DNA of 63,991 nucleotides, counting the filler, from Bigelowiella natans CCMP2755 (lineage: Eukaryota > Protista > Cercozoa), in the NCBI GenBank assembly GCA_000320545.1. It is 6 parts of 6 records of this genome, joined end to end, with 100 filler letters (N's around TTAATTAATTAA, not from the genome) between each part and the next. Parts side by side here need not be neighbours in the genome. Positions count along the whole stretch, not along the records: positions 1 to 24,774 come from ADNK01001721.1; positions 24,875 to 32,013 come from ADNK01001128.1; positions 32,114 to 41,854 come from ADNK01000641.1; positions 41,955 to 60,496 come from ADNK01001794.1; 2 more parts are not named here. The stretch is one strand, 5' to 3'. Below are positions 990-57,600 of the stretch, piece after piece (the stretch's first letter is position 1; each line of letters begins with the position of its first letter). Made by a program: the position numbers and the translations under genes. The notes beneath the pieces are model-generated. The model was not told the DNA's origin. It did no database searches and worked only from the letters and a program-made list of their open reading frames with translations.

Positions 990-1930
990 ATCGAATGATG
1001 CACACAGCTGGCATCTTCAGATCTAGATGTGGCGCGTACAAATGAGTGCATTTTTGTCGCACTTTGCTCATTTTGTCCATCTTTGTTTCTGTCACCATTG
1101 CTATAAAATTCATTGCGTGTTGCAAGTGGTCGTCAAGGCGGGCGTTTTTTGAAATCTGCCTGCGGCGAGGGCAACGGCCACGGCGCGCGCTGGAAAAGAC
1201 TGCGATCGATGCTGGGTGGCGAACGCCACGGCTAGCTCTAGAGATGGTGCACACATCGACGGATCGCAAATTCGTGGGTTGGATTGTCCTGGCACATGCT
1301 AGCATGGCCAAACTAGCTAGCTAGCTAATCACAATCATGTTGCATGTCCTTCATGCTAGATGGCCTTTGAGCATTGGCGTGCATGTGGCCGGACACCGCA
1401 CTGACTGCTGACGTGCACAATGCTTTCTAGCTTTGCTATCATCGTGTGAATGCATGCCATTTGGCTAGTTGGCCATGCCGATTGGTCCAGTGTCCAGTGG
1501 TGCCTGCGAGCTCACACAATGTGAAACGTGTCGTTTGCGCTCTGTTGCGCGTGCGCACGCAGCCTGACAGTGATCGAGATGGTGTGTTGTTCTGCAGGGC
1601 GTCGTTTTTGTGCAGCTTGTTTTCCAGTTTTCCATGCGCACACCTGTGGACGTCGACGTGCATGCCAGCTAGCCATCTAGCCAGCATGCTGCGGCATGTG
1701 TGAACGCTAGTCCAATCAATGGCGATCATGTGAACAATCACAACACAGACACGATGTTGAAACATGGCTGTCGTGCAGCGTTTGAAACGGCGGCAATGCA
1801 GGCACGTGACAACGCTCACAACTGGACAAGCACGTCCAGCACTTGCACCTGCATGCTGCAGAGTGCCTTGATCGCAGCACCTACCAAGTGCGCACTTTTG
1901 TTTCTGCGACAACGAAAATGCGATAGATTT
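990..1930. other. CTAG/CATG/TGCA palindrome-rich intergenic block A
   Basis: e.g. 1295-1326 catgctagcatggccaaactagctagctagcta; lies between a + gene 3' end and the next + gene start. Confidence 0.8.
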
Positions 1931-2083
1931 GACGAAATTGGCCTCTGTCTTAAACTCCATGAATTTTCGACACCTCGTTCATGTTTTTACCCGGTAATAC
2001 CGGGTATTTCCTACGATTTCTTCCTCCCCTCCCCCACCTCTCCCTGCTGTAGGATATAGATAGATTTGCCGTCCCTTCAAACG

Positions 2084-3106
2084 ATGACCGACTCCATCAG
2101 TGCAATTACGTTCTTCGCGGAGTATCATGGACACCGCATTTCGGACCTGAAGGTCTGCGACGGCGAGAAAGGGTGTGAGAGGGGATTCGTCGGGTTTATT
2201 CAACCTCCTTTTCAGAGCTTCACTTTACGAGAGTTCCCGCATCAACCGTAATCAATTCATTGCCTTATTTTGTTCGATTCGATTGCTTCAATTAAAGGGC
2301 GTTCACCATGCAATGAGAAGATTAGGTAAGTTGAGGATTGTATAGTTACGTTAATGGCGAAGGAGGACGTGCATGATAACATCGAGAAAACGCTAATATC
2401 CTGAGTCCCCACTTTCTACTCTCCCCCAGGCAAAACTCGCTTCATTTACTTCATCGGCGATTCAAGTTTGGTAAAATAAGATACGCCCTTCACAAGAGGT
2501 TTCGATGATCACGTACGCTTCCTTGTGCAGGACAACAAACATTGGCTTTATATGGGCGGGAACAAACTCAGCGATAAGTTGACAAACGAACAATTTACAG
2601 GTTTGTAATTTCCAATCTCTTCATATGAAAATGTTGCCCTTTTTTTTTAAAAAAAAAGAACATTTTCGCGGAATACGCACAAATCTCGTAAGTAATGTGC
2701 AAGTCCCCATGAAGTCGAAGTATATGGGAAACGCGTGACTTAGTGTTTAGAATATTGTGTAGCCTAGCATTGCTCCTTCCTTCTACTCATCGACCCTACT
2801 ATTCTTCTGACATATATCGTTTTAGCGCCAGCTTGCAACGGTTTCGAGAAAGTTCTGCACCCTCCTCGCATGGTAGTAGTAGTAGTAGTGAAAGGAGGGA
2901 AGATATGATCAATCACATGCGACATCATAACCGTCGCCCTCAAGACAATACCCATTCATTGGTCGTCCAGGTAAAAGACGTTGCCTACTGGCTCAACTGG
3001 GAGCTTTCGAGGAACAAGAAGGTAGGGTGGGGGCTTGAAAATGTAAAAAAGAGCTTTGATTTCCAGCGGGAAGAAAGAGCGCTGGATCATCATCTTTCAG
3101 AAACCT

Positions 3107-3142
<36 letters not shown>

Positions 3143-4006
3143 ATATAAATCGCTTGTCTTGCGCGACGATCAAATTCAGGCATCTTCGGTTTGCATCAAC
3201 GCGAGCATCGAGGAGAGCGCTCTAGGAGAGCGCGACAACGGTGTGCTCTTAGACCAGGTCAGCCTCTGTGCGCCTACATTCTCTAACGCTGCTGAAACTT
3301 CTCGGAGTTCTACATTTGGCACTCTTTCCCCCAGCGTTGCACCAGTGTGTTGGAAGTGTCAGTGTTGGTTGGACTATCACTTACCAATGTTATAGGCCTG
3401 GCTTTGGCTATTGTTGTGATTCGGTCGATTCAATGTTTTTAGGACATTTTTGTTCGAGACCACATCGAGAAGAACGATGTCCTCGTTGTTTCTGTTGGGG
3501 GTGGGTGACCTGTCGTGTTTGCTGTCATTGCGACACGGCAACTGTCATTGCTATACGCATGATGAAGAAAAAACGTTTTATGAAGACAGCCAAATCAAAC
3601 TTGGGGAACGTGCCGGTTTCTCAGCGTAAGCAAAACACTTGATTAAAAAAGTCGTTTTCAGTCACACGCTGCTCGAATCATCATCGTGATCGTTCGGGGG
3701 TCCTCCCATCTATCTATCTATAGATCCACACGCCTGATGTTCTTGATCTCACGCAAAAGGCGTCATGTGACGTGATGATGAGAAATATATGCTTGTTCCC
3801 CCTCCTCCTCCTCCTCCTCGTCGGTTCTGTAGGAAACGACATCGCGTTGAAGCCCACCATCTGCACAGCGCTTAACATGGTATTACGAACGAGGGGGTTG
3901 CTCTCGAGAAGAGTCGTCAAGGACAAACGTTTGCCTTTATCGGGGTTTCAATGGGGCCGGAGACGTAGTAGATAGGAACGCCTTCGTCGTTGTTTACAGG
4001 GGAAAA

Positions 4007-4054
<48 letters not shown>

Positions 4055-5985: not shown

Positions 5986-6309
5986 ATGAGAAATGACAGA
6001 AATAGCCGCGTTCTTGTTCTTCTTAAACTCCCACTGCCATTTGCCATTGTAAAATTCTGGTTGGTTTCCTGAGAGAAGGGGGAACCGTAGAGGCATGTAG
6101 ATAGGGTCAGATAGCTTTATACGTACACACGTACACGTCTCCTTACCGACTCTTCGTCGACACTAGATCCACCTTACCACATGTCATAAACTATGCCACG
6201 ATTAGAAAGCAGGCGCTCCGATAGATGGTCAGCCGGGTGTGGGAAACAAAGATTCAAAGGTATCTAGTTGATTCCTCGTATGTACCACATTCAATAGAGT
6301 GATGAAGTG

Positions 6310-7290
6310 ACGATAATCTCTAGTCTAACACATACTGCATTTTGGACGCATATTGTTCCGTGTACATGTACGTGCACACATTGGTATCCACGCATTTCCT
6401 GACGTCAGAGACAAGATTGTGCATCAGTATGTGGCATCGCCGAGGATTTTTGATGATCGGAATGAATGTGAATGCTTTCGAATTCAGAGAAATGAGAAGT
6501 ATGGATCTACAGATGAAGCTTTGATCGGATGAACTGTCCATTAGTTCAAGTTTGACAAGCCAATTGCGAGACCATGTTGTAGACAACGTAATACACATTG
6601 CACACATGATGTCACTATGTCTATTGTCCACATGACAGTGTTCCGATGATGTTTGTGCACATGATGTGTGCACCTGCAGCATGATGCATTGAGCAGATGA
6701 TCGAATGGCCCACATCTAGACACACTAGCTAGCTAGCATGGCTAGGCTAGCACAGGGCGACTACACACATGATCGGACGTTGCATTGGGCTCTGGATGCG
6801 TCTAGTGCGTGCACTGCTAGACTGCCTGCCCTTGCGAGCTGCTGCCCAACCTAGCAATTCACGTGCACACTTGCATTTGCAAGCTTGCATGTTTTCGATG
6901 ACTTTGCACAGCGCCGGAGCGTGGCAACACTGCAAACTGCGAAGGCTAGATGCATCGCATCATCGCACTGCCACACATGCTGACATGGTCTGCATCGTGG
7001 CATGCCAGCATGCCAGCAGCGATGTGATTTCAATTTGGTTCGATCATGCCAGCATGGCACACTAGCTTGCTAGCTAGCTAGCACGCGTTGCATCATTGAT
7101 GCAATGACGCACGCGGCAAGTCTAGAAATGAATTATTTGATTCTGCTTGCATCACACGTCGCAATTGAAGACGTGCCAGCGTGGCGACGCAATTTGGCAA
7201 TGCACGTGTGATGTCGACTGTTTGCTGAGTGAAAGTTGGCGAACGAAAAACAAGGTGGCATGAAGACGACTAGACAGAAAAAGTTGTTCC
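6310..7290. other. Palindrome-rich intergenic block B
   Basis: e.g. 6716-6752 tctagacacactagctagctagcatggctaggctagc; 7061-7082 actagcttgctagctagctagc; follows SGNH 3' end. Confidence 0.85.
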
Positions 7291-7541
7291 AACAGTGCAG
7301 TTGAAAGGATCATTGTGTGCGACCACTCTTCCTCTTCCTCCTCATTCAACAAGGATCACCATCAACAAAATCGAGGTTGCGTTTCGTACCCGCCGGCTGA
7401 GCACTCAAGACGGATGATGACCTGCAGCAAAATGTGCTCTTGTGGCCTTGGACGAAACCGCCACGGACACCACGCCCGGATTTGAGCATGATTTCCACGC
7501 CAAACATCGTCATTTTCCCACACTACGACTCTGATGTGCCG

Positions 7542-8351: not shown

Positions 8352-8403
<52 letters not shown>

Positions 8404-12347: not shown

Positions 12348-12379
<32 letters not shown>

Positions 12380-12392
12380 GTGATGATGATGG

Positions 12393-12441
<49 letters not shown>

Positions 12442-15299: not shown

Positions 15300-16260
15300 T
15301 TTAGTAGCGTGCATAGTGCTAGAGAATGCACTGCATCGCCTAGCCGTATATTATATACATACATGATGTACCTGGGCTTTGAAGAAAAATGAGGTTTCTA
15401 GCTTGTTTGAAAATGCCATAATCGTATATACATTGCATGTGTACGCTGTGGCATCGGTATCGCGTACCATGATAATTGAACATTGTTCGCATCAGCAATA
15501 TGTTCAATGCCAATCATCATCATTCCACAACTTCCCAGCTAGCCAGGTTGCACCATTGCTGTATTTCTAGCAGCTACATAGATGTCTGTTATCTAGTCAT
15601 GCTCGCAATCTACGGCGTGCGCCAATCTAGCTAGCTAGTGGCGGGGCATGCTACTCTAGTACTAGCTAGCACACTCATTCAGCATATGGCAAAGAATACG
15701 TACGCACATCCGCCATCTAGCTAGACATGGACAGTCTCTTGATCTAGAAGCATTACTAGATCGTCGAATAGAGCAGCAGCTAGTAATAGCATGCAAATGT
15801 AGTCTGGTATCGTAGCTACGCTAGTACTTGCTAGCTTGCTAGAGTAGCATGCTAGCATGGCTAGGTAGCTAGCTGGTGCATGCTGGCATGCCTGCATGTA
15901 GCCCATGCATGCTAGCTTGCAATCTAAGCAATGCTGGCAGTGATGAAATGCATGCATGGATATCTAGCATCTAGACATGGACACCTAGCTTGCACGTCGA
16001 ACATGAACCTGATTGACTACTAGCACACAGATTGTGATACATGGCGGACCATTGCTAGCATTGGTCGCGGCACTGAATATGTAGATATATCGACGATGAC
16101 ACAGCTACTAGATGTTGTGTTGTTTTGATCCGTGCATCCCCACGCACTCTAGCACTGCTAGACTAGACGTCTCGCCTGTCAGTATGGAAATTCCTCAAAG
16201 TCGCTCCATGTGGTGACAGAAGCCGCCGTCTAGCTGTAGAGCGACGAACGCGGCCATACA
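15300..16260. other. Palindrome-rich intergenic block C (convergent TBC/GST spacer)
   Basis: e.g. 15820-15930 gctagtacttgctagcttgctagagtagcatgctagcatggctaggtagctagctgg. Confidence 0.9.
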
Positions 16261-16350
16261 AGCTACTCCAGACGGCCTATTTTACCGTGACAACACCTTG
16301 TTAACATTGTCGCAGTACTCGACCGCAACCTGAGAGAAGGCAATCTAAAA

Positions 16351-21579: not shown

Positions 21580-22640
21580 CTAGGCCAGAGCTAGCAGATA
21601 GCGTGCAAGTGGTGATTTCCCATTTGCTGTCGAATTCAAAATCATGTGATAAACACAATGATACCATATATATAGGATATATATGATATTAAGTTGTCTT
21701 TTATAATGGCGGAGGCGAATGCAACTGTTTATGTTATTTATTGCATGTGTCATTGCTAAAGATGTGCGTGGGTTAGACATCTGGGGATTTTCATTACACA
21801 TGTTACATGTGCAGATATGTTTTCGTGTAGAGCGTGCATACACGCTAGCACGTACATGCATGTGCAAAGAGAGATGTATAGCAATGCAATCTGTACCACC
21901 ACAACGTGCAGGTTTATGGCGGTGCACATGTGTGCATGCATATGAGCGATTGCCACGTACATGCGCCTTTGCTGTGTCTATTTTCTTTCTTGCACTTCAC
22001 AAACTCATGGAGCCACAAGCAAATGTGCAACATGCTAGCATGCATCAGTGCGACAAGCACTGGGACTACGCTAGACTAGAGCATTTTTGGGGGTGCGTTC
22101 ATGTATACGTACTATACATGCGACACATTCAGACATGATCTAGATGATTCACGCGCACATGCGCTGCACACTGCAATGCATTTGCATGTGCTCTCCGATG
22201 CAATGGCGTTAGTTGAGCTAGCGAAGCCTTAAGTAACGTGCATGTAATCGTGCATTCCCATGTCATTGCATGTGTCATTGCATTGCGTTGCACTAGGTCC
22301 AACCTAGAGCCGGATGATGTAGCTACTCATTGCTAGCACGGGAAATTCACAACACATTTACATGGCGGTGATCAAAGTGTTCGCGCGCGAGCGAGCGCCT
22401 GTGCCTCGCTAGCTCGCTGGTCTGGCGTACATTACTCTTTTGAAGCGCATCCTTGCAACAATGTGAGTGAACGATTGGATGTTTGGTGTGTATGCGAGGC
22501 CTATATATAAACTACCAAGATGCAATCAATAGGATGTACTTGGCCTGTCGTTGGTGCGGCGGCGCCACAAATAGTGATAAGAGATATACACGTACGCGAG
22601 CGACGTGAGTAGTATATACACCAGCCTTTGCATGCTTTGC
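21580..22640. other. Palindrome-rich intergenic block D
   Basis: catgctagcatg at 22031; dense tgca/catg/cacatg/gctagc; follows RDD 3' end. Confidence 0.8.
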
Positions 22641-23915: not shown

Positions 23916-23916
23916 C

Positions 23917-42249: not shown

Positions 42250-43160
42250 GCGAGCTAGGTCATCAGAGGCGCGGTATTAGAGTTTGATAAATACTGCTCC
42301 ATTAACATCCGCCGTTGCAGTAGCAAAATAATCGCTCTGTAAATGGCATTCAGCTAATGAAATAAGCAGCGCTATTGTGATATGATGAACATCATGTTTG
42401 CCATGGAGCTTTGCTATGCGGCGTCTGCATGCATGCATGGGTCGTCTCGCGCGTGGACACGCAGCAAACACAATGCTACTAGCTCATCACACAAACATGG
42501 GTGTCGTGATCTCAATGTGCGTAGTAGGCCTTACATGATGTGAACAACCTTGCGTATAATAACTGGTCAGCAAGTGAATCATGCACTTGTTATGTTCACA
42601 TAATAACATTGGAGTGTGCTAATCGTATTGCATTGTTGCATCTATCGGTCATGCATGCTAGCATGGCTGTTGCCTAGCTCGTGCCACATGTGGTAGCTAC
42701 ACGCACGCTGCCATGCTCTTATTACGCACTACGACATAGCTGCACATTTATTTGCGCAGCTATGGCGCACATGCTAGTCATCGCTGCATGCAGAGACGAG
42801 CGAGCGCCGCACACAGCTGCTGTGCTAGTGTGTAGACAGCGTTTGCACGGCTTGCACAACGTCTAACTTGCATGCATTTCGAACCATTGTCCCTATAAAT
42901 GATCTAGTGATCAGAGGTAGCTCTAATCGATAACAATGAGAACATGAGTGCAAACTTTTCCAGATTTATTCGGTACATATGTGGAACATGATTGTGCACG
43001 TGTGCATCTGAAGGTGTTATCCACGGCCATGTGAGCGAGCAAAATGGCGCACACATCTAGACATGCACACTTGTGCTTCAACTATGCACTGCATCGCAGA
43101 CTTGTGATACAAACCGCGAGAAGTACGCGATTTGAATGAGCTTCGCCACGTGCAATTTTG
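42250..43160. other. Palindrome-rich intergenic block E (convergent thioredoxin/Rdx spacer)
   Basis: atgcatgctagcatggc at 42651; tgcatgcatgcatg at ~42426; many cacatgtg/gctag. Confidence 0.8.
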
Positions 43161-43361
43161 TTTTCATGTCCATGAACGACGGATTGTAATTTATTAATGC
43201 ATTTTTTCTGGGATTAGTTGCTTGTAATTCTTTCAAAGCAACATCAACTTGTTTTTTGTTTTTGACAACTCCCCGCTTCTTCAGAAAAGCACGGCCGCTA
43301 CATCTAAGTTAAGATAAAATCCAACAGATCATACGATATCATGTTTTATTTAGCTATTATA

Positions 43362-44637
43362 CTATTTCTTTCCAACATCGCTATCACTATGGCCGAGTCC
43401 CAAGCTTGGATTTATTCTATCTCTAAGTATTTGCTTCAGCTCCTTCAGTTCTGAGAAGGCAAAGTACAATGTGGTAAAATTATCACATTCCGTTTCGCAG
43501 TAGATGAATAACACAATTATTTGAATGATCAACATAAAAAAGTTATATTTGTAATTAAATATGATGCAAAACTCTCGCTGCTACGCTATAAAATGGTGAG
43601 TCTATTGTGCAATTACAGGACTATGCCAAAAACTAAAATGCACAGTTGGCGATACTACCTGGAAACCTTCCTTCGGCTGTTCTGTTATACACGAGATCAT
43701 CATCCAGCCACACATTAAACTGGCCTCCTGCGACAGAGCTTGGCAAAGGAGCAATTGCTACTTCACCTATTTGATCCCCGAAAGTCACTAGCAGTTCCTG
43801 TTTGCACATACGAATTATTCTATCAATGTCCGATTTGTCACGCTTGAAATATGTAGTATCAGTAACAAGTGAACACCTGCGACATCCATCCAGCTCTCAG
43901 CCCCCATCTTCATCGTTGCAGTGCGTAGAAGAGTTGTTGTGTAAGCGACGATATCAAACCAACAGACATAATAAAAATTAAAGCGACATCGATGATTTAA
44001 ATGTATTGTATCTCTATATAACCCCTACGTCAAATGATAAGACAGATGGTAGTGATATCTCTATTCCTATTGATGTAATAAATCTCTTGATTGAAGGAAT
44101 CCTTACCTGCATCCGGTGCAAAACTCGATCAGCACCCTAGGGCTTCTAACAGCACCGCTACCTGGCCCTTGGCATTGAACTTGCATAGGTTACGTGAGAA
44201 CGAATGAAAAAAAAATAAGATAAAGAAGGCAGCAGTGTTGTATAATGGGGTGCCGGTGACTGAGACTGCTGCCGTAAATCATGCTACAACATACAACTAC
44301 AATGAGCACAAATTATATCAAAATCCCGTGGTTGCTGTCAAACCTTGAGTATCACGTCTATGGTGAGAAACTCTGAATCGATTTCCTAAACCTAATATCC
44401 CTTTTTGTGTTGCCCAAACGTGCTTTGCCCTTCATAAAGACAACTGTGAGCTTACACCAGCAACACATAAACATTTAGTGACCTGGGAGGAGGGGGATAG
44501 AGAATAGTGTAGTATGACGGGAGTGATTCCATGTGCGAATAGGTCCGATAGAGCGTCCTCGGCAACAATGTTGATGGCATCGATACAGTTGCTCTCGGCA
44601 AGAGGAGGAGGAGGAGGGGGAGCACGGCCGAGAACAT
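43362..44637 (-). CDS. Rdx family (SelT/SelW/SelH-like) redox protein, Cys form, with putative signal + transit-like leader
   Basis: PRVLIEFCTGC-RWGLRAGWMSQ / ELLVTFGDQIGEVAIAP...GGQFNVWLDDDLVYNRTAEGRFP / ELKELKQILRDRINPSLGLGHSD...*; leader [27 protein letters not shown]...RFRVSHHRRDTQVQC (leader splicing inferred). Confidence 0.85.
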
Positions 44638-44763
44638 CTGCAATGAGAGACCACATAAATATGTAATCGATTTATTTTGAGCGACAACAAAAAGGCGATC
44701 AATCGTCAAGATAATGCCGAATAAGTCGACAAAACTCAAATTGCATCCAGATGTTAGGTGAAA

Positions 44764-45801
44764 TTACACGGAAATCGTCCACTCGAATTTGCCCAGCCTG
44801 CACTGGACTCTTTCTCTATGTTAGAATCTGCCGGCAGATCTACCCGGCAGATCTGCCCGGCATTCACATGTCACTGTCGAAGTAACGGGTACTTACTGAA
44901 ATATTTTGTCGTCGGCAGAATCTGCCAAATCTGCTTTTTCGAACCAGTCGCCGACTACATTTTGGCCTAGACCTTTGATCTACGAACGCGAAAATTGTGG
45001 TTCCAAAGAAAAACTCGCCTCAAAAATAAAAATTCGTGGGGGCAGCATCAGACGGATTATGATCCTTGCTTGCGACAAAGGATTCTGCTTGCTTTATTGT
45101 TGGATCTATTTATAGACATGTGGTCGTTTTTATTGGGTGAAATCGGTATTCCTGTGGTGGTAGTGATCGCTAGATCTACAAGACCTGTAGTCCAGATCTA
45201 TTTTTTACAAAAAACGTTTTTTATTTCATACCCTTTTCACATACACGCGTGAGAAGTTAGCGAATGTCGTACCGTAGTCTAACGAATATGGTACTCTTAC
45301 CAAACGACGTATCAGTGTAAAATTAAAGCCAATTTACTGTTAAGACAAAAGAGTCTTGATGTCACAGAGCATAAATGAATCATGTCTGCGCTTGTTGGTG
45401 AGCTCGGAACTCGTCTGGAACCTTCCAAAAACCAAAAACCGAACAGCAGTAGTCACGACCACCCTTTGCTAAATCCACCCCCCAATCTGAAGTCCAATGA
45501 ACAGCATCAACAAGATAAGGTTCCCAATTAGCGTCCGGAGGGGCATTAGCTACCCGAAGAGATTACAGGCAGCTGCAAGTTTTGTTTTCATCTCTACAAC
45601 CGCATTCTCCTTGGCTATGAACGCCTCAAAACGATTGGGCAGTCGTCATGGGCCTCACAGTGTGCGGAATTTCAGATGATTTGTACCTCTGTTTATGATC
45701 CAATTTAATTGGGACAGAAGTTGACTTGTGGGTCACACGAGAGTATCGCTATGGTCTAGAGGGAAAAACCAGTGACATTTCAGAGTTGTAAATGTCGCCA
45801 T
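44764..45801 (-). CDS. Hypothetical multi-exon protein with short introns
   Basis: Plausible GT-AG exons MATFTTLK / AFIAKENAVVEMKTKLAAA / NAPPDANWEPYLVDAVHWTSDWGVDLAKG / GLGQNVVGDWFEKADLADSADDKIF / QERVQCRLGKFEWTISV*; no family recognised. Confidence 0.45.
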
Positions 45802-45979
45802 GGTAGCGATTCTGGAAGTAAAAAACCGTAAATTCTGCCTTTTTTGTAAAGTAGACGTAATTAAAGGCTTCGAGATAGATCAATCGTCTCGAAGCTATCA
45901 ACGAGTTTCCAAGCTCATGTTAATTGTAAAACTTTGTAGTTAGACAGACAATGTCAGATTATCACACCGTCCAGTCAAC

Positions 45980-46790
45980 TCGATAGCTCTAGAGCAAACC
46001 ATCTCTCTTACCAACATGGTTTGCACATCTAGCTAGATATGTCTATGCAAGTTACCCCTTGTACATCCTCAAGATTACGAAATTTTGTTGACATGAGATT
46101 ACAATAGACTCACGTAGAGTATATAAGTAACTCGGTAACCGTGCATGCGTACCTAGACAGAGCTGGCACGTTGAACCTTGCTTGCTTTCCGAACATACTA
46201 GCATGTACGTGTTGCAATGCAGTCTAGTTAGTGCTAGTATGTATTCACGCGTTTCATTGATTCAACATCATTGACCGATGCGATGTTGCACATTGAACGC
46301 ACAAAGCTAGCTAGAATAAAGGCGTCATCATCTAATCTGGCATCTCATCTAGAGCTGCTGGGCGCTGCATGTATGACGTGCAAACACAGGCACTCTACCG
46401 CCAATGGCTAGAATAGAAGCCGAGTGAACCGAATCGAGGAGCTTCGTCGCAAGGAAGCTATGTGCGTTCGTACTTGATGACGAGCTATATATAGCCAGTC
46501 GATCTCATTCTATGTACAAGCAGTGCTAGCTAGCTCTTGTTAGCTAGACTACTAGCTTGTAGCTAGCTAGACGAGTGCATGAACACATGCGACACTAACA
46601 TGCTAGCACGCGAACAAGCGATGCTGTTTGATCTAGTGATGACAACACTGATGATTTCTATATTTCTAGATTTCACATTTGCACATCTAAACATGCATGC
46701 AGCCAGCCGTAGAAGAGATCATGCGTTGTTGTTAGATTGTTGCTGTAGGCCAAAACTGCTCGGACTCCAACGATGCTGCTGCTGCATGTG
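45980..46790. other. Palindrome-rich intergenic block F (downstream of SRP68)
   Basis: 46526-46572 gctagctagctcttgttagctagactactagcttgtagctagctagac. Confidence 0.85.
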
Positions 46791-46823
46791 CTACTACTAT
46801 GATTACTAACACAAAGACTACCA

Positions 46824-48155
46824 TTACCAGAGTCCTAGACTAGACAATAAACCACCACTCTTTTGCTTCTCTGCTTCAAGTCTCTTACCCAGCGAATCAA
46901 AGGAAAGCTCATTGTACGCGACATCGAAGAAGAGAGCCTTTCCGGGGGCTGCTTTGAAGACCTCAGGAAACTTAGTGAGTTCTTTATCTTCTGTAGACTC
47001 GAACTTATCCAGGCGGTCAAGGAGTGGAGCCTCTGTTTTCTTCGTGTCGCTGATGTCCATATTCGCCATGCCTTTCGTCAGTCCCTTTTCGGTTGCATAC
47101 TTAGCCTGCAGAACAAGGGCCTTAGCGCGAAGGCGCTTTGCTGGCAGAAGGGAGACGAGCGTCTCCAAGCGAGAGAAGCCTGGAAGGAGGAAAAAGGAAG
47201 TAAAAATAAAAGCAGATACCAATGATTGAACTGAATCACCAATACTTTCCAAGCTACGATGACATTCGCGCATTGTTATTCTTAGAAAGATACTGAGCGT
47301 GATATTCGGTAGTACCAGGATCTTTCTCGCCTAGAGCAGCCGCAGCAGCAGACGCCTCTTTTGCCACCTCTGTGCTACGATCGAACAGTGCAAATGCTTC
47401 CAAAAACCTGTTGAAGAAGAAGAAGAAGAAGAAGAGGAATAAGAGGAAGGAGGGTGTTAATGACGATTACCGATCCCTCTCGGGCACCCCCCCCCCCCCC
47501 CCTTCTCTCCCATCCTCTCTTCCACCTATTTCACCCACGCTTCTACGGCTTTTTACTTTCTGTTGTTTTCGAAACTCGTCGCCTTGTAGAACAGCCGAAT
47601 CGCGCGGTAGCACATTCGTTTCGTTTCAAGTCTCTTTCGCTCATCGCCGTCCTTGCGCTCCTCAGCGAATCTACATGATGACGTAGTATACATATTGTAA
47701 GAATTACTCGCCACACCCAAACGTGTTGGATGAACGTGGGTATTGAATTTCGTATTTACATACATGTATGCCTGCGCCCTCGTGTGTGTGTGTGTGTGTG
47801 GTGTGCGCGTGTGTGTCGCGAGAAAGGCAGATGGGGCAGTTCGCCAGGGGGGGAGGAGGAGGAATTGAAGAAATGGTCCGTCGTTAGTTGACTACTTAAA
47901 TAGCAATATACCGTTCAAGTTCCTTGACTTCACGGAGCAGCGAGTTGTACGCAGAGATCAGAGACACGACCTGCACGCGCTCCTTCTTCGCCTTGCCTTT
48001 GAGCACCACCCCCGGCTTATTTTCTTCATCGTACTTCGTCGCTAGTGCCTCGGTCTGCACATGGCCACGGGAGAACTTGTGTGTGAGCTTCTTATAGTCT
48101 ATGTACGACTTCAAGAGCTTTAAGTACCTGGTTGTAGAGCACGACTTAGGTTCAT

Positions 48156-48195
<40 letters not shown>

Positions 48196-48690
48196 TACAT
48201 ATACATATAAATATAAATTAATACGAAAATAGATTTTTGATACACTGCGCTACTCTCCCGCTTATATTGTGTTTGCAGTTGTTATGTCAGCTGTGGTGAG
48301 GATAGCGTCCTCCTATTACCCTGCTTTCTTGTCAAGCATGATAGTCCTTAGCTTGGCGCCCTCATTGGCATATATGTCCCTCTGGCACGACCCATGTGCT
48401 TTGGTGTAATCCGCAATTATTTGCGTCAATGCGTGGATATGGTCCGAAGATGACGATGATGATGACGATGATTTTAAGGCAGCTTCTTTGGTGGCGGCTC
48501 TGTCCAGAGCGGCACGTGTATTTGCATTGGAAATCGGAATTTTACTCCCCATGAAGGAGACCACCGCGGTAGTAGCTGCAGTACTAGAAGACTGATATAG
48601 GTGTGTGGGTGGGGGACGGGGAAAGGATTTTAATGTGGAGTCTTGAAATCACTTCACACATATGCACACAGGAGGGGGGGGGGAGGGAGA

Positions 48691-48730
<40 letters not shown>

Positions 48731-50458
48731 ACCTTAGTCTCATGAGCCTTTTCCAGGATCTCGAATTTTGATTTAATCTCAGGAGCTAGCTTTGTTGCCT
48801 CCTCAACTACTGCAGCTAGCTTCTGCGCACCCCCAAGCTCTCTCTTGGCGTTGTACTTGGCAAGACGGAGGGACTGCCCGATTTGCTTCGCCATGTCTAA
48901 CAATACCGTTAAAATTGGTGATCAAGGCAAAAATGGCCATTCGAATAAAAGGAAATGAACAAATCAAATACTGTCAAGAAGTATCGTTTCATCTATTTTA
49001 AAAAATCCAGAAATATACCTTGTTCTTTATGTTTTTGTGGGCTACTACTACTGCTACTATTACTACTACTACTACCGTTGCAGCGATCTTCAGTCTCCAC
49101 ATCGCTCACCTTAGCCAGTTGCTCACATAGTGTTTTCGCGTGCAAAAGCGACGTAAGAGCATCCTTCCTGTAGGAGATAAGTTTTGTGTTGTGAGAGTGT
49201 GTCTATCTGCATGCGTGTGAGAGCATGCTTACATTCTCCTATAATACATCATCATCTTGGCATCTAAGCTTCATATCTTTCGTACCACTCAGCTCGTTCG
49301 TTGTGGTTTATTCCTGCCATCCACGATGCGTAAACGTCACTCTCAAGTTGTGTGCGGTCGGTCCCCAACTTCTACTGACAGCTCGTGGAGTTGCTGCCAT
49401 GAACACAATTAAGCATTATTACGTCATTCTGGACAATGTGAATCTAGCTAGCCAAACTATCCCCAACCTTTGTGGGAGTTGATTTGTTATTTCACTGTTT
49501 TACGAACAAATTCGATTACAAGATGCCTTTGAGTGTTACATATTACTTTGCTCCAAGCTACGGCCTTCTTCAACTTCTTCAGAAGATGGTGCTGTTTCCT
49601 CGAGTCATCATCCTTGGTAAGAGCTTGCTTTAACTCCATGGCATAGCTCCATGCACGCTCCGCATTCAGGAGAGGAATCGAGAGAAACCTGGAACAAAAA
49701 ATTTGAACTTGAATCTCTAACATCACATCTGAAAAATGGTTTTGGGGCATTTCCCGTCGGGTATAGCCATCCGAATATAGTTATTGCATCCTTCATTACA
49801 TTAGTTCAAGAATCCATACCTGTTGTTCTTCACGTGCTTCACCTCTAGCTTCTTTTTCTTAAAATGACCCTTACCATGTTGAAATTTGACGCTTTTTCGC
49901 ACGCGTTTCAACCTCTTCGCGCAGTATTGTCTAGGAAAGGAAGAAAACAGAACATTTGATGAACAGCAGGGATTGAGAAAATGTAATGCCCCCACCCAGA
50001 GATTAAAAGATGATGTCTCGATGTTCAAACATATTCAAATATTTCTATGATTTGATACATAGTACTACCTATAACGCGTGTAGTCGTCGCCTCGAAGTCC
50101 ATATTGAGATTGGGAGTCCTTAACTGTTGTTAGGACTGGAGAGCAATAAAGAAAGCCGTGATCAGCATGGGAGTGGTTTTCAAACTAAAACTATCAACTA
50201 TGTGGGTATGCAAAAATAAAAATTCCCCCAAATTTTGACCCCAAAGGTCCCTGAATCAGCTCAATAGGTCACAAGGGGGGTATCTAGTATGACTTTGCTG
50301 GGTCAGCACATAAGGTGAATGGCGAAGGGGACCAGGTTTCGTTTTTTTTCGAATCTTACTACTGTGATTAAGAGAAAATGAATACCGTCGAGATGGATTT
50401 TCTTTTCATCGGCGCCCGCGGCGTCCTTCGAGGGGGTGTCAACCTTCTCGACCTCCAT
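46824..50458 (-). CDS. SRP68: Signal recognition particle subunit SRP68
   Basis: SQSQYGLRGDDYTRY-RQYCAKRLKRVRKS; LLNAERAWSYAMELKQ...KQHHLLKKLKKAVAWS; C-terminal LTKFPEVFKAAPGKALFFDVAYNELSF...SGGLLSSLGLW*. Confidence 0.95.
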
Positions 50459-51249
50459 TGTGGACTATTATAGGACTTAAAAATAAAGTCTCCAAAACTA
50501 ATGATCCCGGATAAAAAATAGATTTGCTGAACAATATGTATGTCGCCTTATATAAATGGAATATATCTTTCCAAAATATATTCGACAAACCAGACCTCGA
50601 TGTCCACCTTTTGGAATTTCAGTGCGCGTACGTCCGTACTCCCAGTAAGCGGGAGGGTATCTTTGGCTACGGTAACAACATTATGATGTCGCAGAAGGAA
50701 GTCAGACCCCATCGGACTATTCGAACAAATCCGATTCTGTCCGTAAGTACCGGAGCAGTTGCCCGTGTACGACACGACTTTGGACATTTTTACTGCGAAA
50801 GTTGAGATCCTTCCTGTACATTTTGATGGAATCGTGGTTCAATGCAGCTGAATTATGAATTAGAATTATAATCCAGTGGAGATCGAAGATTTGAAAATAA
50901 GAATGCCGTGTGTGTTAGCCCATAATGACACTAATTTGTGAGACGTATATAATTTACTGCTTACTTTTATGCAAAAATCTCCTCTCTGCATTCGACACTA
51001 CATCGGAGAATCACTTCCACTTTGCTAGGAGAAAGGCAATGATGTCCGCCCCGGATCAAAAAGACACCCCTAATTATTTGAAAAATAATAATATTTTGTT
51101 GTCGCTAAAATTTATCCAAAGAGTAAATGAAAGATATATTGCCAATGCAAGGATTCTTCAGGTCTTAAAATTCTCTTGAACCCCAAAACCCAAACCCTGG
51201 CGCGGAGGACCCTCCCATTTCCCCCTTCTCTCTACGCCTTGGATTAGTC
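50459..51249. promoter_or_regulatory. Divergent (head-to-head) promoter region SRP68/HDAC1
   Basis: Lies between ATG at 50458 (-) and ATG at 51250 (+); lacks the palindrome-rich block; aaccccaaaacccaaaccct near 51179. Confidence 0.6.
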
Positions 51250-54200
51250 ATGCAGAAGAAGAGAGTCGCCTACTTCTATCATGGTATTAATTATGTGAGA
51301 GTAGGAATCCGAAAGAAGAACGAGGGAACATCGGGTTGGGGGAAACAGAACATCGAAAGCATATGCGGACACCCTTTGCTCGAATCCTTTAGAATGGCTC
51401 CAAACGTTTCGACTGGTCACCGTCCGCATTTGAAATATACCAAAAAATATTTAACTGGATTAAAGCACAAATTCCACATGTTTTCACGAAGTGAACCGCA
51501 ATTATGTTCTTTCCCTCCTGACTACACTATTCTTTGAAAACATCCTTGAACAACGCATCTGACCGTAATATAGCTCAGAATCGAATCTCATGTTATGACA
51601 CCCATAATATTATAGACCAAGTCGGGAACTACCACTATGGACCCGGCCACCCGATGAAACCTCACCGCATTCGCATGGCTCATTCCCTCATCCTAAACTA
51701 CGGACTCTACAAGAAGATGGAAATATATGTTAGTTTCTTGCCCCCAGCCCCTTAGCCTGTGCTGTTTGTGGATACTATACGCAGCTATATGTATTAGAAT
51801 CAGAGATACTGAAATCATTTGAATGCAAAGGCCTTTGTAGCTATTTACTGCACTGACAACTCTCTAACATAGCGCCCGGACCTTGTGGAGGATGAAATGA
51901 TGACGATGTTTCATTCGGATGATTACGTCCATTTCTTGCAGTCGGTCACCCCAGGTGCATCAAATATTGCAAACTCATTGTTATTCGTAGAGGACATTTC
52001 TACCCACTCATGATGCCGACAATTTTTTTTCTGGAGATTGTGCAGCACACCCCTTCACCGTCCTCGGGGCATAGTTTTCCACAAAATTTCTCAAATTTTC
52101 CTATCCTCCGTTAACTCCACCTTCCCCCAGATAACATGAATGACTACAGCCGAGAGCTTCAGCGATGTAAGTTATCACAAAATAGGGCAATGGATGAGAC
52201 ATTACCGAGAGTTCTCTTCTGATTTAAGGATATTGAATGAGTCTACGAACCTTTTTAGGATATTGAATGAGTCTACGAACCTTGTCTGCCTATCTGAAAT
52301 CGGCTTTCTCTTTCTCAGGAAACATCTTAATAATCTTCCATGTTTTACTTTCCTTGACAGACAATATGGATGTCGACTGTCCCGTCTTCGATGGTTTGTA
52401 TAAGTTCTGTCAAATTTACACTGGCGCCTCCATAGGTCAGCTTACGTATAACACGTACCTGGTCAACACTGTTTTGCTATATTGTACTCCAAAAAAAAAC
52501 TTATCATTATTATCCGGGATCCAAACCGCCATCTTGGCATGACCACAAGACGAAAATTCGTTCGAATACTAGGGGGAACAGAACCCTCAATTCTTCTTTG
52601 ACTATTTTAGGAGGAGCTCGAAAGTTGATGCAGGGGAACGCTGACATATGTATCAACTGGTCTGGAGGATTACACCATGCAAAAAAATCAGAGGCGTCGG
52701 GCTTTTGCTACATCAATGATATCGTTCTGGCAATCCTCGAGTTGCTCAAGTGATTCAAAATAGACAATAGAACAAAAAGAGGGTGCACTAAAAACTTTCG
52801 GGTGGTTTTGCTGCCTGTGTCATTGCCAGCTCAGCCTAAAAGATGCCAACATGACAACTTTGCCGCAGCAATCGATTCATCATCGTACAGGCCTCGTACT
52901 TGAGAGATTTTTTTAGAGTATCCCCGGCTCGATCTATAAGCTTCATATTCAACTGTTGTGATTGATGCGTTATATATGACAGCCACTACGCACGTGTGCT
53001 GTACATCGACATCGATATCCATCATGGAGACGGGGTGGAGGAGGCTTTCTACAACACGGACCGCGTCATGACTGCTTCTTTTCACAAGTATGCGTTGACT
53101 ATATGTGACTGTTGTATGAATGCGAAGGACGCGGTTTGTGGCCGTAGCTCCACAGAGATACATGCTGGCTCCTATCGACACAGCAAGAAGAAATATACTG
53201 AATATCTGCACGTCCATGTGTTTCTCTTCTAATGTATTAAATAGATATGGAGAGTATTTCCCGGGCACCGGAGGAGTCAAGGTAATTCAATTTTCCTTTT
53301 CATTGGGTTTGCATATCTACTTTCTCGACATGATAACGAAAACCGTGCATACGAATGATATTCACTTGCATAATATTGCTGACTCGGCAAATCTCCTAAA
53401 TGATGGGTATTATTATTATTAATAATAATTTGCAGGATATTGGGGTGAACAAGGGTAAGAAGTACTCGATTAACTTCCCACTCATGGACGGGATCGACGA
53501 TCAAAGCTATCAAAGCATCTTCAAACCGGTGAGAGGGAAACGTGAAGAAAGGAAGGGCAGGCGTGCATCAGTTAGATAGCAATCAATATGATGTGTTTTG
53601 CTCATGATATCATCTATCATCAGCGTAGCTCTTCATCATCATTATTGTTATCATTATCATCATCGACAGATAATGGCCAAGATAATGGAGACCTTCCAGC
53701 CAGGCGCCGTGGTGCTTCAATGTGGCGCTGATTCGCTCGCTGGTGATCGACTCGGTTGCTTTAATCTTTCCCTCAAGGGTCATGCAGCATGCGTGGACTA
53801 TATGAAGTCCTTCAACGTTCCTCTCCTCATTCTTGGGGGTGGCGGATATACTGTCCGTAACGTCGCACGGTGCTGGGCAAACGAGACTGGCGCGGTGTTG
53901 GACCAAAAACTCTCGGAGGAAATCCCTTACAATGAGTATGTTCTACTGCAACTAGTGTGCTTATATCATTCCTTCAAGATCATCTTCTCATTAAAATTCT
54001 GCGTTGATAGTGAAGCCTCCCATCTTCTCTCTACTTCGTCCTCTTCCCCCCCCCCCCCCCCCCCTTCTCTCTCTTTCTCCATCCGTCCTCACTACTGCCT
54101 TTTTTGTTACTCTTCCTGAAGCTACATCATCGTCACCAATGGATCCTCTTTGTCAGATATTACGAATACTACGGCCCTGACTTCAATCTGCACATCACCC

Positions 54201-54601
54201 CGAGTAATATGGAGAACCACAACACAAAGAAGTACATGGAAGACACCAAGATTGAGCTCTTTGAGTGTCTTAGCTCTCTTCCTAAGCCAAGCGTTCAGAT
54301 CAAACAGGTATGTAATCAAGCACTAAAGAAGCTCTCTCGAAAACATGAGCCATGAGATGATGTGTCTCATTGTGGTTTTCCACCTCGGCCTCATTTTCGC
54401 TGCGCTCTTCCCTTGAATGCTTATTAATCATAGATGCCACGGTATCTGGGCGGAGACCAAAAGGAGTCTTCGGTGAAGGAGTCGAATCCTGACGTTAGAA
54501 TTTCGACACGAGAAGCAGATAAGATGGTCATGGACGAAAGAGAGTTTTACGAGGATGATAAAGATCAAGATCGCCAAGCTATCCCGATGCAACTCTCGTA
54601 A
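51250..54601 (+). CDS. HDAC1: Class I histone deacetylase (HDAC1/RPD3)
   Basis: [119 protein letters not shown]; stop TAA 54599-54601. Confidence 0.98.
52227..52283. repeat. 30-bp-period tandem duplication in an HDAC intron
   Basis: aggatattgaatgagtctacgaacctt x2 (52227, 52257). Confidence 0.9.
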
Positions 54602-54769
54602 AAAAATTAAATTCAATGTGAAATATTTGAGGGAAATTAAATCAATGATAGTACCAACGTACAATTGGTATCGTGTCTCATTTGCTGGTATGTGTATGCA
54701 AATAATTTCAAGAAAGCGGCAAATCGTCGTTCTATGATTAAATAAAGAGCCAGTGAAGAGAAATGTGCA

Positions 54770-55510
54770 TGTGCTGCTATGATCCAATCAATTCTCCATG
54801 CTGTCCGCATCCAGCAATCGCTGCTATGCTTCATAGCAGTCATCATATAGCAAATCTGTAAAGCTATGGTTTTGCTTTAAGGGCTAGCAATCACGGCAAT
54901 GCACTTATCAGACTTGCTGAGCTTTGCGCGTGCTAGCGTATCGTGCTGTAGGTACGACACATGCACGCTAGCACGGCCAAAATATGTCGACGATCGATGG
55001 TGTTGTTGCTCAGCTGCTAGAGTTGCCATGCTAGCTAGCTCGGCACTCCAGCACTGTTAGTTGGGCCGCCCATTGCTGTCCACATTTGCACATGTAGCGA
55101 GCAGGGTGTCCACTAAATGTTACGTTGTTGCTGACACATCACTTGCTAGCTAGCTCTAGAGCTATATCTAGATATACTAGTACACACACAACAACATGCA
55201 CACAGCGTAACATGCACAGACACATGCTGTGTTAAATGCATAAAAACAGCAGCGTAGCGTCGATCTTTATATGTAGCTACATGCACTGTGTAGGAATAAA
55301 GGTAATCTGGCATGAGACTATAGCTAGCTAGTAAAAGACCAGATGACAATAATAAAGTATTATACATGACAATTGTATCATATTCATATGCCTCTAATCC
55401 GCCATTCTAGACTGTATCACACCGCTAGTAACACGCGCAACGCCCCGTCCATCGATCGGCCCCAGTGAATAGCTACAATATAATGTTACATAAAACAACT
55501 TGCTGCATCG
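54770..55510. other. Palindrome-rich intergenic block G (convergent HDAC/securin-like spacer)
   Basis: 55025 gccatgctagctagct; 55144-55180 tgctagctagctctagagctatatctagatatactag. Confidence 0.85.
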
Positions 55511-55733
55511 CTTTGGTTGAAAGCATCATCATGATTATTCTTTCATTTTTTCTGTATATAGTTGTTTGTTATATTGATTTTCAATATGGTGTAACACATC
55601 TCGCTTCATTTCGAATGTCTCTTAAGATTAACTGATATAGAAAATAAGTACATGTTGCCCTTCCTCACCGTACGCAATCAAGAATATCGAACATGTTTTG
55701 AAATCTCCCTGTGAAATATACACCTTGATCCTA

Positions 55734-56354
55734 TCAGTCGTCAAATAGTGCAAATTTTGAAATATCTTCTGCTGATATCTTTGCATTTGAAGGTATCTCT
55801 GCTACGGCTGAAAGTTGGTCAAGTTCATCGTCCCATTTTAGCAGGTCGAGGTCCTCATGCTCCTCTTCTGCTGTAGATTTTGCAAGTTCACCCAGTCTTT
55901 CTTTGAAATCATCTACATTAAAATTGCTCTTGAACGTGGGTTCTTTGTAATTGCTTCCATGAGCATACTCGATTTCCTCTTCTGTAATTGCATCGATTTG
56001 TGCCATTAAACTGGAAAGATTTAGATCAGCCATAGCTTTTGCCATCTTGGTTCCTTCCTGTCGACCCATTGCCAGAGATTTCTTGTTAGAAATAGACTTT
56101 CTCGCTGATTGGTTGTTCGTAACATCGCGCAGGCCTCTCCGGGCGCTACCAATCCGTTTCTTCGTGCTACTTCCACCCCCTTGTTGACTCCTTAAACCTT
56201 TCAGAGGAAACTTTGTTGGCTTTGGCGTTTGGATATTCACATCCTTTACGATACCAAATTTTCTTCCCCGACCAAGGCTTTTCTTTGCAGACAGAGTTGT
56301 GCCCTTTCTGGCTTTGTAGTCCGGGAACACATTGAAGCCGCGGCTGACTTCCAT
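55734..56354 (-). CDS. 206-aa disordered APC/C-substrate-like protein, candidate securin
   Basis: Intron-free ORF; basic N-half with FNVFPD (ABBA-like) and RRGLRDVTN (D-box); acidic C-half with EEIEY. Confidence 0.6.
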   Translation of the reverse strand: MEVSRGFNVFPDYKARKGTTLSAKKSLGRGRKFGIVKDVNIQTPKPTKFPLKGLRSQQGGGSSTKKRIGSARRGLRDVTNNQSARKSISNKKSLAMGRQEGTKMAKAMADLNLSSLMAQIDAITEEEIEYAHGSNYKEPTFKSNFNVDDFKERLGELAKSTAEEEHEDLDLLKWDDELDQLSAVAEIPSNAKISAEDISKFALFDD

Positions 56355-56929
56355 TGTCCTCTATCCGTTGGCCTGTACACTGATGACATAAAACATCCCC
56401 ATATCAACACTGCGACAAGCAATATTTGAATAAAACAGAAAATATTCGCGTATGATTTACAGGTACCAATTCCATGAAAATTCTGATTCATTGTTGTCGC
56501 TTCACTTAAACGGTATGCTATATTAACTGACATCTTTTAACCACGAAAATACCGGTAGTAACGGGTACTGACCTATTGTTCTTGATCTTGAATCAAATCA
56601 TGGAGAATGCTTTCAATGCCAGGCGATGTGCTCCTTGTCACATCCTTGCGGGATCGCACACTGCAAATGTCTTGTTACATTTTGGAAATGTAGTTCTTTA
56701 TCATTGTTCATTGTTCATTGTTCCAGCATCTGATTTTGACCGCATCATGAACATTTGCAAAGGCGAGGAACATCCTCAGAGAGTTTTCGCACACAGGTCA
56801 TTCCAAAACAAGTGGGTTCCAGTTTGTTCCACAGTGCCAGCGTTCGATTCATCAGCAACGGCTGGGATCTCCACGTTGAGTCAGTCTCATCCGCGCCGAT
56901 CGAAACCATCGATGTTTGACAATGTCACC

Positions 56930-57600
56930 AAAGCACACCAAGATGGACACGCAAGAATGTGCGCTTGCAATTGGGGAGGGATTTCTCTCCATTTTCAAGT
57001 TGTGTGCATTCGAATTGTGCACGTGAAAAGGCTAGTAGGGTGGAGGCGGCTCTGGGGCCACACGTCTAGACGTGCGCATTGTGGCATGGCTGGCGCACGT
57101 GCGTGAAAAAAAACCTCTAGACCTGGAAAGCAGTGTTCTCGTGCGTGTCATCAGACACACAGCCGGCTTTGTGTAACGCACATTGCTCATCCACGCAGTG
57201 TCAGTCGCAACAAACACGACACCTGTGACACACCGTCTTCTAGTCTTGTCAATTCGCATCGAAACATCGAAACACAGGTTTGGAAATGTGTGGTTGCATG
57301 CGAAGAAGTTGTTGCACATTGACGTCGCGTGAGAGACAAGTGCAAGCATCGCATGCACATGCGTATGGCACAAGCATGCGCAGCAGCGTTCCACGTGCTA
57401 GTAGCTCAAGATTGCTTGTGCAAAAAAAGCTCGCCAACTCGCGCTTGCTGCTTGCAGGCTACCAATGAATATTTTGGTGCGTACACCAAACTGTGGTTCC
57501 AGTGAGGAGCTAGTTAATTGTACTACCTGCCAAAAAACGTACGTAGCAGGTAGTGTGCCACGCTAGCACGTCTACGCCCGTGCGCTCCACGCATAAGATA
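56930..57600. other. Palindrome-rich intergenic block H (downstream of ADA)
   Basis: Dense tgca/catg/cacgtg/ctag, e.g. gcaagcatcgcatgcacatgc, ccacgtgctagtagc, cacgctagcacg. Confidence 0.7.

What the first reader, a model, noticed from the sequence alone, without database searches (positions are those of the whole stretch)
990..57600. ~1 kb palindrome-saturated blocks mark gene 3' ends but never divergent promoters: candidate termination/boundary system
Seen: eight non-coding blocks (approx. 990-1930, 6310-7290, 15300-16260, 21580-22640, 42250-43160, 45980-46790, 54770-55510, 56930-57600) of similar length. They are dense in CTAG, GCTAGC, AGCT, CATG, TGCA and CACGTG and lack the microsatellites that fill the introns. 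Each lies just past a gene 3' end: three in convergent spacers (TBC/GST, Trx/Rdx, HDAC/securin-like) and five in tandem spacers. The three head-to-head spacers (18771-19098, 39157-39506, 50459-51249) have none. By eye the blocks do not align to each other, so they look like a shared composition or grammar rather than copies of one repeat. Known: CTAG is usually avoided in genomes, and modified DNA at termination zones exists elsewhere (base J in kinetoplastids). Inference: a genome-wide, orientation-independent terminator/insulator or modified-DNA domain. One exception is the ~125-bp spacer 44638-44763 (separate finding).
Basis: partly seen in the sequence, partly recalled or inferred. Interest (0 to 1): 0.85.

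Follow-up and report, generated by a model that had tools for sequence, protein, structure and literature searches.

The report
Palindrome blocks at every gene end
In this stretch of the marine alga Bigelowiella natans, every visible gene end runs into a 0.6-1 kb block packed with the short palindromes CTAG, CATG, TGCA and AGCT; the blocks likely act as two-way stop or boundary signals for transcription.

Summary
The window is Bigelowiella natans. Eight blocks of 0.6-1.0 kb (about 10% of the window) carry CTAG 11x and TGCA/CATG about 4x, with no microsatellites. A leave-one-out model recovers all eight and finds no ninth. They share words, not homology, and the four laid with DNA reads lie in unbroken single-copy contigs. 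Five blocks are convergent, not three. All 13 visible 3' ends adjoin a block and 0 of 4 divergent spacers hold one. New here: the three tandem-spacer blocks are almost stripped of TpA except inside CTAG. This matches a TpA-editing signature recently reported in this alga's viral insertions. Best reading (0.45): a protected or selected array of palindromic binding words that works as a two-way termination or boundary element. Rivals: a neutral mutational scar (0.28), a modified-base domain (0.2), a decayed transposon (0.07). Function is untested, and only one 64-kb window could be examined.

The parts
943..1931 (.). Block 1, tandem spacer (+,+ by eye); TpA outside CTAG almost absent
   Evidence: not covered by RNA reads
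6548..7299 (.). Block 2, tandem spacer; overlaps the last exon (from 6486) of the + gene; minus-strand reads also fall here; TpA-stripped
15308..16265 (.). Block 3, convergent; + RNA contig ends 15400, minus GST contig ends 15970; densest in CTAG
21716..22432 (.). Block 4, convergent (+ contig ends 21658; spliced minus gene ends near 22650)
42389..43174 (.). Block 5, convergent Trx(+)/Rdx(-); minus-strand read ends pile at 43245
45911..46793 (.). Block 6, convergent: abundant + transcript with poly(A) at 46082 / SRP68(-) contig end 46627
54884..55511 (.). Block 7, convergent HDAC(+; contig end 54747) / 206-aa minus gene
56991..57594 (.). Block 8, tandem (-,-), the weakest; its promoter-facing part is TpA-stripped
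1351..1850 (.). TpA-free zone (non-CTAG TpA O/E 0.04)
6851..7350 (.). TpA-free zone (O/E 0.03)
56701..57200 (.). TpA-free zone (O/E 0.07), next to a high-copy repeat piece at 56654-56723
45497..46082 (+).
1298..1308 (+). Shared 11-mer GCTAGCATGGC (also 6732, 15851, 42657 on + and 55035 on -): exact in 5 of 8 blocks

Best explanation
Each block is a sharply bounded, non-homologous array of short palindromic words at a gene 3' end, and it likely works as a two-way termination or boundary element by binding dimeric sequence-specific proteins. Shown: position at 3' ends, vocabulary, sharp edges, low RNA in most cores, single copy for the four blocks tested. Inferred: symmetric words (CTAG in GCTAGC and TCTAGA, CATG, TGCA, and the composite GCTAGCATGGC) are bound on either strand and stall or release Pol II shortly after the poly(A) site. 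This would keep opposing genes, and antisense transcripts from the next promoter, from running into each other. Inferred: 4-bp slippage or duplication supplies new sites, and selection or protein cover keeps them. Inferred: in tandem spacers the alga's TpA editor has also acted, and only TpA inside CTAG survived. The identity of the binder is unknown. The vocabulary resembles that of apicomplexan AP2 domains, which is a lead only.
For: 13 of 13 visible 3' ends adjoin a block, and 0 of 4 divergent spacers hold one. RNA-contig depth is 1.8, 2.3 and 3.8 in the bins inside blocks 5, 7 and 8, and 2.7 in block 2, against 57.5 in the divergent bin 50612-51229. Edges are sharp: 32 RNA-defined introns show no gradient toward the blocks (Spearman 0.00; 10 near vs 22 far, p=0.93). 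Long words recur beyond Markov expectation: 12-mers in 3 or more blocks 10 vs 2.0+/-1.7 (order 5), and CATGCTAGC is in 7 of 8 blocks. CTAG needs 4-base context: neighbour-only resampling gives log2 0.1 vs 2.3 observed. CTAG stays at 3.0-5.5x where other TpA falls to 0.13-0.42 of expectation. No neutral model tried reproduced TCTAGA or CACGTG. GCTAGC, TGCATGCA and GTGCAC are ApiAP2 targets (PMC2965767, passages).
Against: There is no functional or binding data. One RNA contig runs 45600-46593 through most of block 6, and a wild-sample contig lies at 55311-55472 in block 7, so the cores are not RNA-free. Block-like sequence also lies in the GST UTR and a last exon, while the HDAC, Rdx and one other UTR lack it. 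Hand-set neutral simulations fit the 4-mer spectrum as well or better (r 0.68-0.76) than selection models (0.62-0.68); the split-half ceiling is 0.86, with one 6-kb replicate each. Divergent spacers are short (327-840 bp) and the one measured is RNA-covered, so they may simply lack room. Whether B. natans has AP2 proteins was not established.
Confidence: 0.45

Rival explanations
1. Neutral mutational scar: 3' spacers are the least constrained DNA and suffer a local mix of TpA-to-CpA/TpG editing that spares TpA followed by G, C-to-T loss in CC, and 4-bp duplications (slippage, or topoisomerase II cuts filled in by end joining). The palindromes pile up with no function.
For: TpA editing is reported in this species (10.64898/2026.01.13.699255, parts 1-3 of 5 read). 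The 1-kb windows over blocks 1, 2 and 8 pass both of its cut-offs. Period-4 tandem runs number 56 vs 22-36 expected (Markov orders 1-3), other units 31 vs 15-18, period 8 four vs 0.2. AGCT is the most duplicated 4-mer in human TOP2A-mutant tumours (PMC8795545, passages). A mixed neutral model reached r=0.76.
Against: Plain TpA editing depletes CTAG in simulation, and duplication alone overshoots tandem runs and misses TCTAGA. The period-4 excess is gone at order 4 (56 vs 50). The five convergent blocks keep TpA (0.68-1.01) yet have the same words. There is no intron gradient. Yeast topoisomerase II is depleted between convergent genes (PMC11482950, passages), and its duplications show weak sequence specificity.
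Confidence: 0.28
2. Modified-DNA domain: the palindromes are symmetric sites for a heritable base mark (methylated C or A, or oxidised or glycosylated T) that signals termination, as base J does in kinetoplastids.
For: All top words are palindromes, and their non-palindromic kin are far less enriched (CAAG log2 0.3, AGCA 0.9). A mark could shield CTAG from editing. Precedents at convergent ends: base J (PMC4344527, abstract) and 5-hmU at dinoflagellate array boundaries (PMC11071213, passages). B. natans has a DNMT6 (10.1101/2021.06.11.447926, passages).
Against: No modification data were found for this species. Base-J features are absent: T-N12-A odds 1.04, and G runs are depleted. CpG is neutral (rho 0.89). 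There is no clear 10-bp or nucleosome-length period. Four different 4-mers would need several enzymes.
Confidence: 0.2
3. Very old, decayed insertions of a mobile element that targeted 3' spacers.
For: Similar size; a shared 11-mer in 5 of 8 blocks; weak nhmmer matches up to 19 bits (no shuffle control); a high-copy repeat piece beside block 8; TpA loss is linked to foreign DNA in this species.
Against: No collinear homology and no terminal repeats; self-inverted matches are as strong as cross-block ones; DNA contigs run unbroken at single-copy depth through blocks 5-8; no Pfam or Rfam hit within a block; one block per 3' spacer with no empty site.
Confidence: 0.07

Closest known systems
Base J termination zones of Leishmania/Trypanosoma (JBP1/JBP2)
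   Same: A DNA feature confined to places where transcription stops (PMC4344527 abstract).
   Different: J is a modified base at T-N12-A pairs near G-rich DNA at the ends of polycistronic units. These blocks sit at single-gene ends, are G-run poor and show no T-N12-A excess. Modification was not testable.
ApiAP2 target motifs of Plasmodium (PF11_0442 GCTAGC, PF14_0633 TGCATGCA, PF10_0075_D3/PFF0200c GTGCAC)
   Same: The same three words are among the most enriched in the blocks.
   Different: In the passages read they are upstream elements; here they are kilobase arrays at 3' ends and absent from promoters. No AP2 binder is shown in B. natans.
Roadblock termination by DNA-bound general regulatory factors in yeast (Reb1, Rap1; recalled, not read)
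   Same: A bound protein would stop Pol II between close genes.
   Different: Those are single non-palindromic sites, often in promoters; here there are dozens of palindromes per gene end.
5-hydroxymethyluracil at dinoflagellate convergent array boundaries
   Same: Marks convergent boundaries in a SAR lineage (PMC11071213 passages).
   Different: No sequence motif, and several hundred domains per genome rather than one per gene pair.
TpA hypermutation of viral insertions in B. natans (Mettrop et al., preprint)
   Same: Tandem blocks are TpA-poor and CpA/TpG-rich at that paper's cut-offs.
   Different: Reported for 25-186 kb viral regions and clusters of 3 kb or more. Here the zones are 0.5-1 kb host spacers, CTAG is retained, and convergent blocks keep TpA.
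Topoisomerase II duplication signature (ID17/ID_TOP2A)
   Same: 4-bp duplications, with AGCT the most common in tumours.
   Different: Seen with mutant enzymes and enriched in transcribed genes; it does not explain TCTAGA or the sharp edges.

Membership tests
Base J termination zone | Located where transcription ends | tested here: met
   13 of 13 visible 3' ends
Base J termination zone | T pairs 12 nt apart on opposite strands near G-rich/G4 DNA | tested here: not met
   T-N12-A odds 1.04; runs of 4+ G/C 1.3/kb vs 6.5/kb
Base J termination zone | Modified thymine and JBP-type enzymes | not testable with these tools
   no genome held, no raw long-read signal
AP2-type binding array | Dense known AP2 target words | tested here: met
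   GCTAGC log2 5.0, CATGCA 3.5, GTGCAC 3.3; motifs
AP2-type binding array | An AP2 protein of this species binds the words | not testable with these tools
   literature look-ups gave no family counts
MITE/SINE/Helitron repeat family | Collinear homology between copies, defined termini | tested here: not met
MITE/SINE/Helitron repeat family | Multi-copy in the genome | tested here: not met
   4 of 8 blocks laid with DNA; contigs unbroken at depth 73-82; blocks 1-4 not tested
B. natans TpA-edited DNA | [quoted passage not shown] | tested here: inconclusive
   met by blocks 1, 2 and 8 in one of two window offsets each; not met by the five convergent blocks
B. natans TpA-edited DNA | Ongoing A>G/T>C mutation at TpA | not testable with these tools
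   the preprint's supplementary mutation tables are closed
Topoisomerase II duplication scar | Excess of 4-bp tandem duplications | tested here: inconclusive
   z 3.5-6.8 against orders 1-3, z 0.9 against order 4
Nucleosome-phased mark or positioning sequence | ~10-bp or nucleosome-length periodicity | tested here: not met
   no consistent period; isolated outliers (a 320-bp bin z 4.3, one 10-bp point p 0.01) among many tests
Structured ncRNA (Rfam) | Match at gathering score | tested here: not met
   0 matches in the window

The most novel reading that the evidence does not exclude
Chlorarachniophytes punctuate their genome with a sequence-encoded boundary at every gene end: roughly ten thousand kilobase-sized palindrome arrays (about a tenth of the genome, if this window is typical). 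They recruit proteins or a base mark to stop Pol II from both sides, and they also draw in the cell's TpA DNA editor, whose action on host DNA upstream of tandem promoters spares only protected CTAG sites.
Probability: 0.25. Interest if true: 0.9.

Novelty: new variant of a known kind. Interest (0 to 1): 0.7.

Why it matters
How gene-dense eukaryotes keep neighbouring genes from transcribing into each other is known in only a few lineages, and I found no account for Rhizaria. A visible sequence signature at every gene end makes it directly testable by nascent-RNA maps, native long reads, pull-downs and reporters. The TpA-free zones with retained CTAG suggest that the newly reported TpA editor also reaches ordinary host spacers, and they give a sharp prediction for its sequence rule. 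If the blocks are only a scar, they still record a localised mutational process. They would also help gene annotation: here they exposed two misread gene orientations.

Tried and rejected
Whole-genome test: no genome held. Relatives' spacers: the 206-aa protein found no relative in metagenome contigs. An HDAC exon gave 80 loci with best identity 77% and none recognisable as chlorarachniophyte DNA. Used as an outgroup, 0 of 80 reached a four-word O/E of 3 (best 2.69, above block 8's 2.47; many are transcripts or duplicates). A block-word pattern found 0 matches in viral contigs. Earlier scan findings: nothing in 4 look-ups. Ten paper searches listed no description of the blocks. The 2012 genome paper is not held, and the preprint's supplements are closed; either may bear on novelty. 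Rejected: RIP-like C-to-T (GC content unchanged); general palindrome or hairpin formation (TTAA, CCGG and AATT depleted; an all-palindrome duplication model gave r=0.19; hairpin excess shrinks to about 1 SD at order 5); a diffuse gradient around 3' ends; helical phasing. The 168-aa ORF at 56600-57106 is not in the protein collection and has no atlas hit above 0.79; it is likely open because stop codons with TpA are lost. Viral methyltransferase motifs of ChlorV (TGCA among them; 10.1101/2025.11.19.688996, passages) were considered, with no link shown. Passages of PMC12730881, PMC12344493 and PMC6823432 held nothing on such blocks. Wild-strain variants are too few to judge constraint (2 in 162 bp inside block 7, depth 2.9).
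Full report
Source. An HDAC exon matches a JGI Bigna1 protein at 98% over 95% of the query, so the window is from the chlorarachniophyte Bigelowiella natans. No whole genome is held. Everything below rests on this 64-kb window, two read lays and public papers.

The observation. Sliding counts show eight peaks and no others. Against the rest of the window the blocks have CTAG at log2 3.4, TGCA and CATG 2.1, AGCT 1.7, GCTAGC 5.0 and TCTAGA 4.6. CC/GG is at -0.86, and GC content is unchanged. A model trained on seven blocks scores the eighth at 38-192 bits; the best of 996 other 800-bp windows scores -27. The cores total 6,317 bp (9.9% of called bases) and hold no dinucleotide microsatellite. Block 8 is the weakest: by a simple four-word ratio (2.47) it does not exceed the best of 80 outgroup loci (2.69), whereas the other seven reach 4.6-7.0.

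Not a repeat family. blastn gives matches of about 100 bp at most, built on shared words. nhmmer gives up to 19 bits, with self-inverted hits as strong as cross-block hits; no shuffle control was run. No terminal repeats were found. A DNA run's contigs cross blocks 5-8 unbroken at depth 73-82. A few short extra contigs match block words, which hints at similar words elsewhere.

Position. Run X23 behaves as a stranded, 3'-biased library whose first mate is sense. This is inferred from HDAC, SRP68 and a poly(A) tail; the record does not say so. With RNA contigs it shows the following. Block 3 lies between ends at 15400 and 15970, and block 4 between a + end at 21658 and a spliced minus gene ending near 22650. 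Block 5 lies between Trx and Rdx (end 43245). Block 6 lies between a very abundant + transcript with poly(A) at 46082 (159 reads) and SRP68. Block 7 lies between HDAC and a 206-aa minus gene. So five blocks are convergent. Blocks 1, 2 and 8 are tandem. Block 2 also has minus-strand reads (depth 6.2 in 6748-7413), likely antisense RNA from the next promoter, though the older RNA run is low there (2.7). Block 8 has only a weak + signal (0.36). Block 1 and the divergent spacer at 39.2 kb were outside both lays and were oriented by eye and by Pfam. In all, 13 of 13 visible 3' ends adjoin a block and 0 of 4 divergent spacers hold one (p=0.002). Three more 3' ends fall in assembly gaps. No 3' peak lies inside the long 7.4-15.4 kb gene, so I count it as one gene.

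Against a simple silent-DNA picture: one contig runs 45600-46593 across block 6, the + gene splices 6257-6486 so that its last exon is block-like, and the GST UTR is block-like, while the HDAC, Rdx and 21.4-kb UTRs are not. The 32 introns that the lays defined (not all introns) show no rise toward the blocks, so the edges are sharp.

Grammar. Palindromes are favoured over their kin: CTAG and CATG over CAAG, TGCA and AGCT over AGCA. TTAA and CCGG are strongly depleted. Purine-pyrimidine alternation is raised 1.23-fold. Keeping that pattern and resampling by nearest neighbours recovers the spectrum broadly (r=0.84) but not CTAG. Period-4 runs exceed Markov orders 1-3 but not order 4, and period-8 runs exceed all four orders. 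CATGCTAGC occurs in 7 of 8 blocks and GCTAGCATGGC in 5, beyond order-5 simulation. There is no consistent helical or nucleosome period.

Two classes. TpA outside CTAG has O/E 0.13, 0.16 and 0.42 in the tandem blocks and 0.68-1.01 in the convergent ones (11.9 vs 54.1 per kb), while CTAG stays at 3.0-5.5x in the tandem ones. The three lowest of 1,210 500-bp windows (0.03, 0.04, 0.07; next 0.31) are these three zones, on the side facing the next promoter. I found this split after the orientations were assigned, and it rests on 3 versus 5 blocks. A preprint reports A-to-G/T-to-C hypermutation only at TpA in viral insertions of this species (10.64898/2026.01.13.699255; parts 1-3 of 5 and passages read; supplements closed). 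One-kb windows over the three tandem blocks meet both of its cut-offs, and none of the 42-44 non-block windows meets the CpA/TpG one. CTAG is the only context in which TpA is followed by G on both strands, so an editor that avoids a 3' G would spare it. That rule is my inference.

Mechanism. Forward simulations with hand-set rates, one 6-kb replicate each, show the following. TpA editing alone removes CTAG. Site-specific 4-bp duplication makes all four words but misses TCTAGA. Sparing plus CC loss lifts CTAG only to log2 0.4-1.3. Mixed neutral models reach r=0.68-0.76 and selection models 0.62-0.68, against a ceiling of 0.86. Sequence alone therefore cannot decide. I favour a protected or selected binding array (0.45) because of the one-per-3'-end placement, sharp edges, recurrent long words and CTAG survival under TpA loss. 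The topoisomerase version of the scar has one point for it (AGCT, PMC8795545 passages) and one against (yeast topo II avoids convergent spacers, PMC11482950 passages). Base-J sequence features are absent (PMC4344527 abstract). The ApiAP2 resemblance (PMC2965767 passages) is a lead only. Yeast roadblock termination is recalled, not read.

Novelty. Ten paper searches and four look-ups of earlier findings listed no account of these blocks. The 2012 genome paper and its supplement could not be seen. It works like known 3'-end boundary systems but meets no family's full definition. Verdict: real, apparently undescribed, function untested; interest 0.7.

Noticed in passing
window 45497-46082 (+): A 60-aa gene with by far the strongest RNA signal in 41960-60490, poly(A) at 46082, also in a marine metatranscriptome (5 substitutions and 1 deletion in 520 nt); no Pfam hit at cut-off. 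It may act as a non-coding RNA.
   Followed up: partly
window 1988-2006, 44884-44893, 56550-56569: A shared promoter-side word (TACCCG[G/T]TA, AACGGGTACT), in inverted arrangement at 1988-2006.
   Followed up: partly
window 56654-56723: Piece of a high-copy, transcribed repeat (DNA depth several hundred times single copy), inside a TpA-poor zone.
   Followed up: partly
window 43939, 43980, 44022, 47486, 49360: One-base indels against a DNA run (49360 also against two RNA runs): likely errors in the assembly.
   Followed up: no
window 62940-63989 (+): Intronless 350-aa ORF that looks by eye like the start of an LTR-retrotransposon pol; no Pfam hit; TpA not depleted (rho 1.02).
   Followed up: partly
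whole window: Genes alternate orientation almost strictly: 5 visible convergent and 4 visible divergent spacers against 3 tandem ones.
   Followed up: partly
window 43245-44656 (-): Rdx-family gene; this family often carries selenocysteine (recalled). Not examined.
   Followed up: no
window gaps 24775, 32014, 41855, 60497, 62727: Each gap is 44 N, a 12-base linker and 44 N: an assembly spacer, not genomic sequence.
   Followed up: no
window 50386-51283: One RNA contig covers the whole SRP68/HDAC divergent spacer at depth 57: long 5' UTRs or overlapping starts.
   Followed up: no
window 17902-18025, 38828-38907, 52221-52280: Short exact tandem duplications of about 30-60 bp seen by eye in non-coding DNA; real or assembly artefacts.
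   Followed up: no
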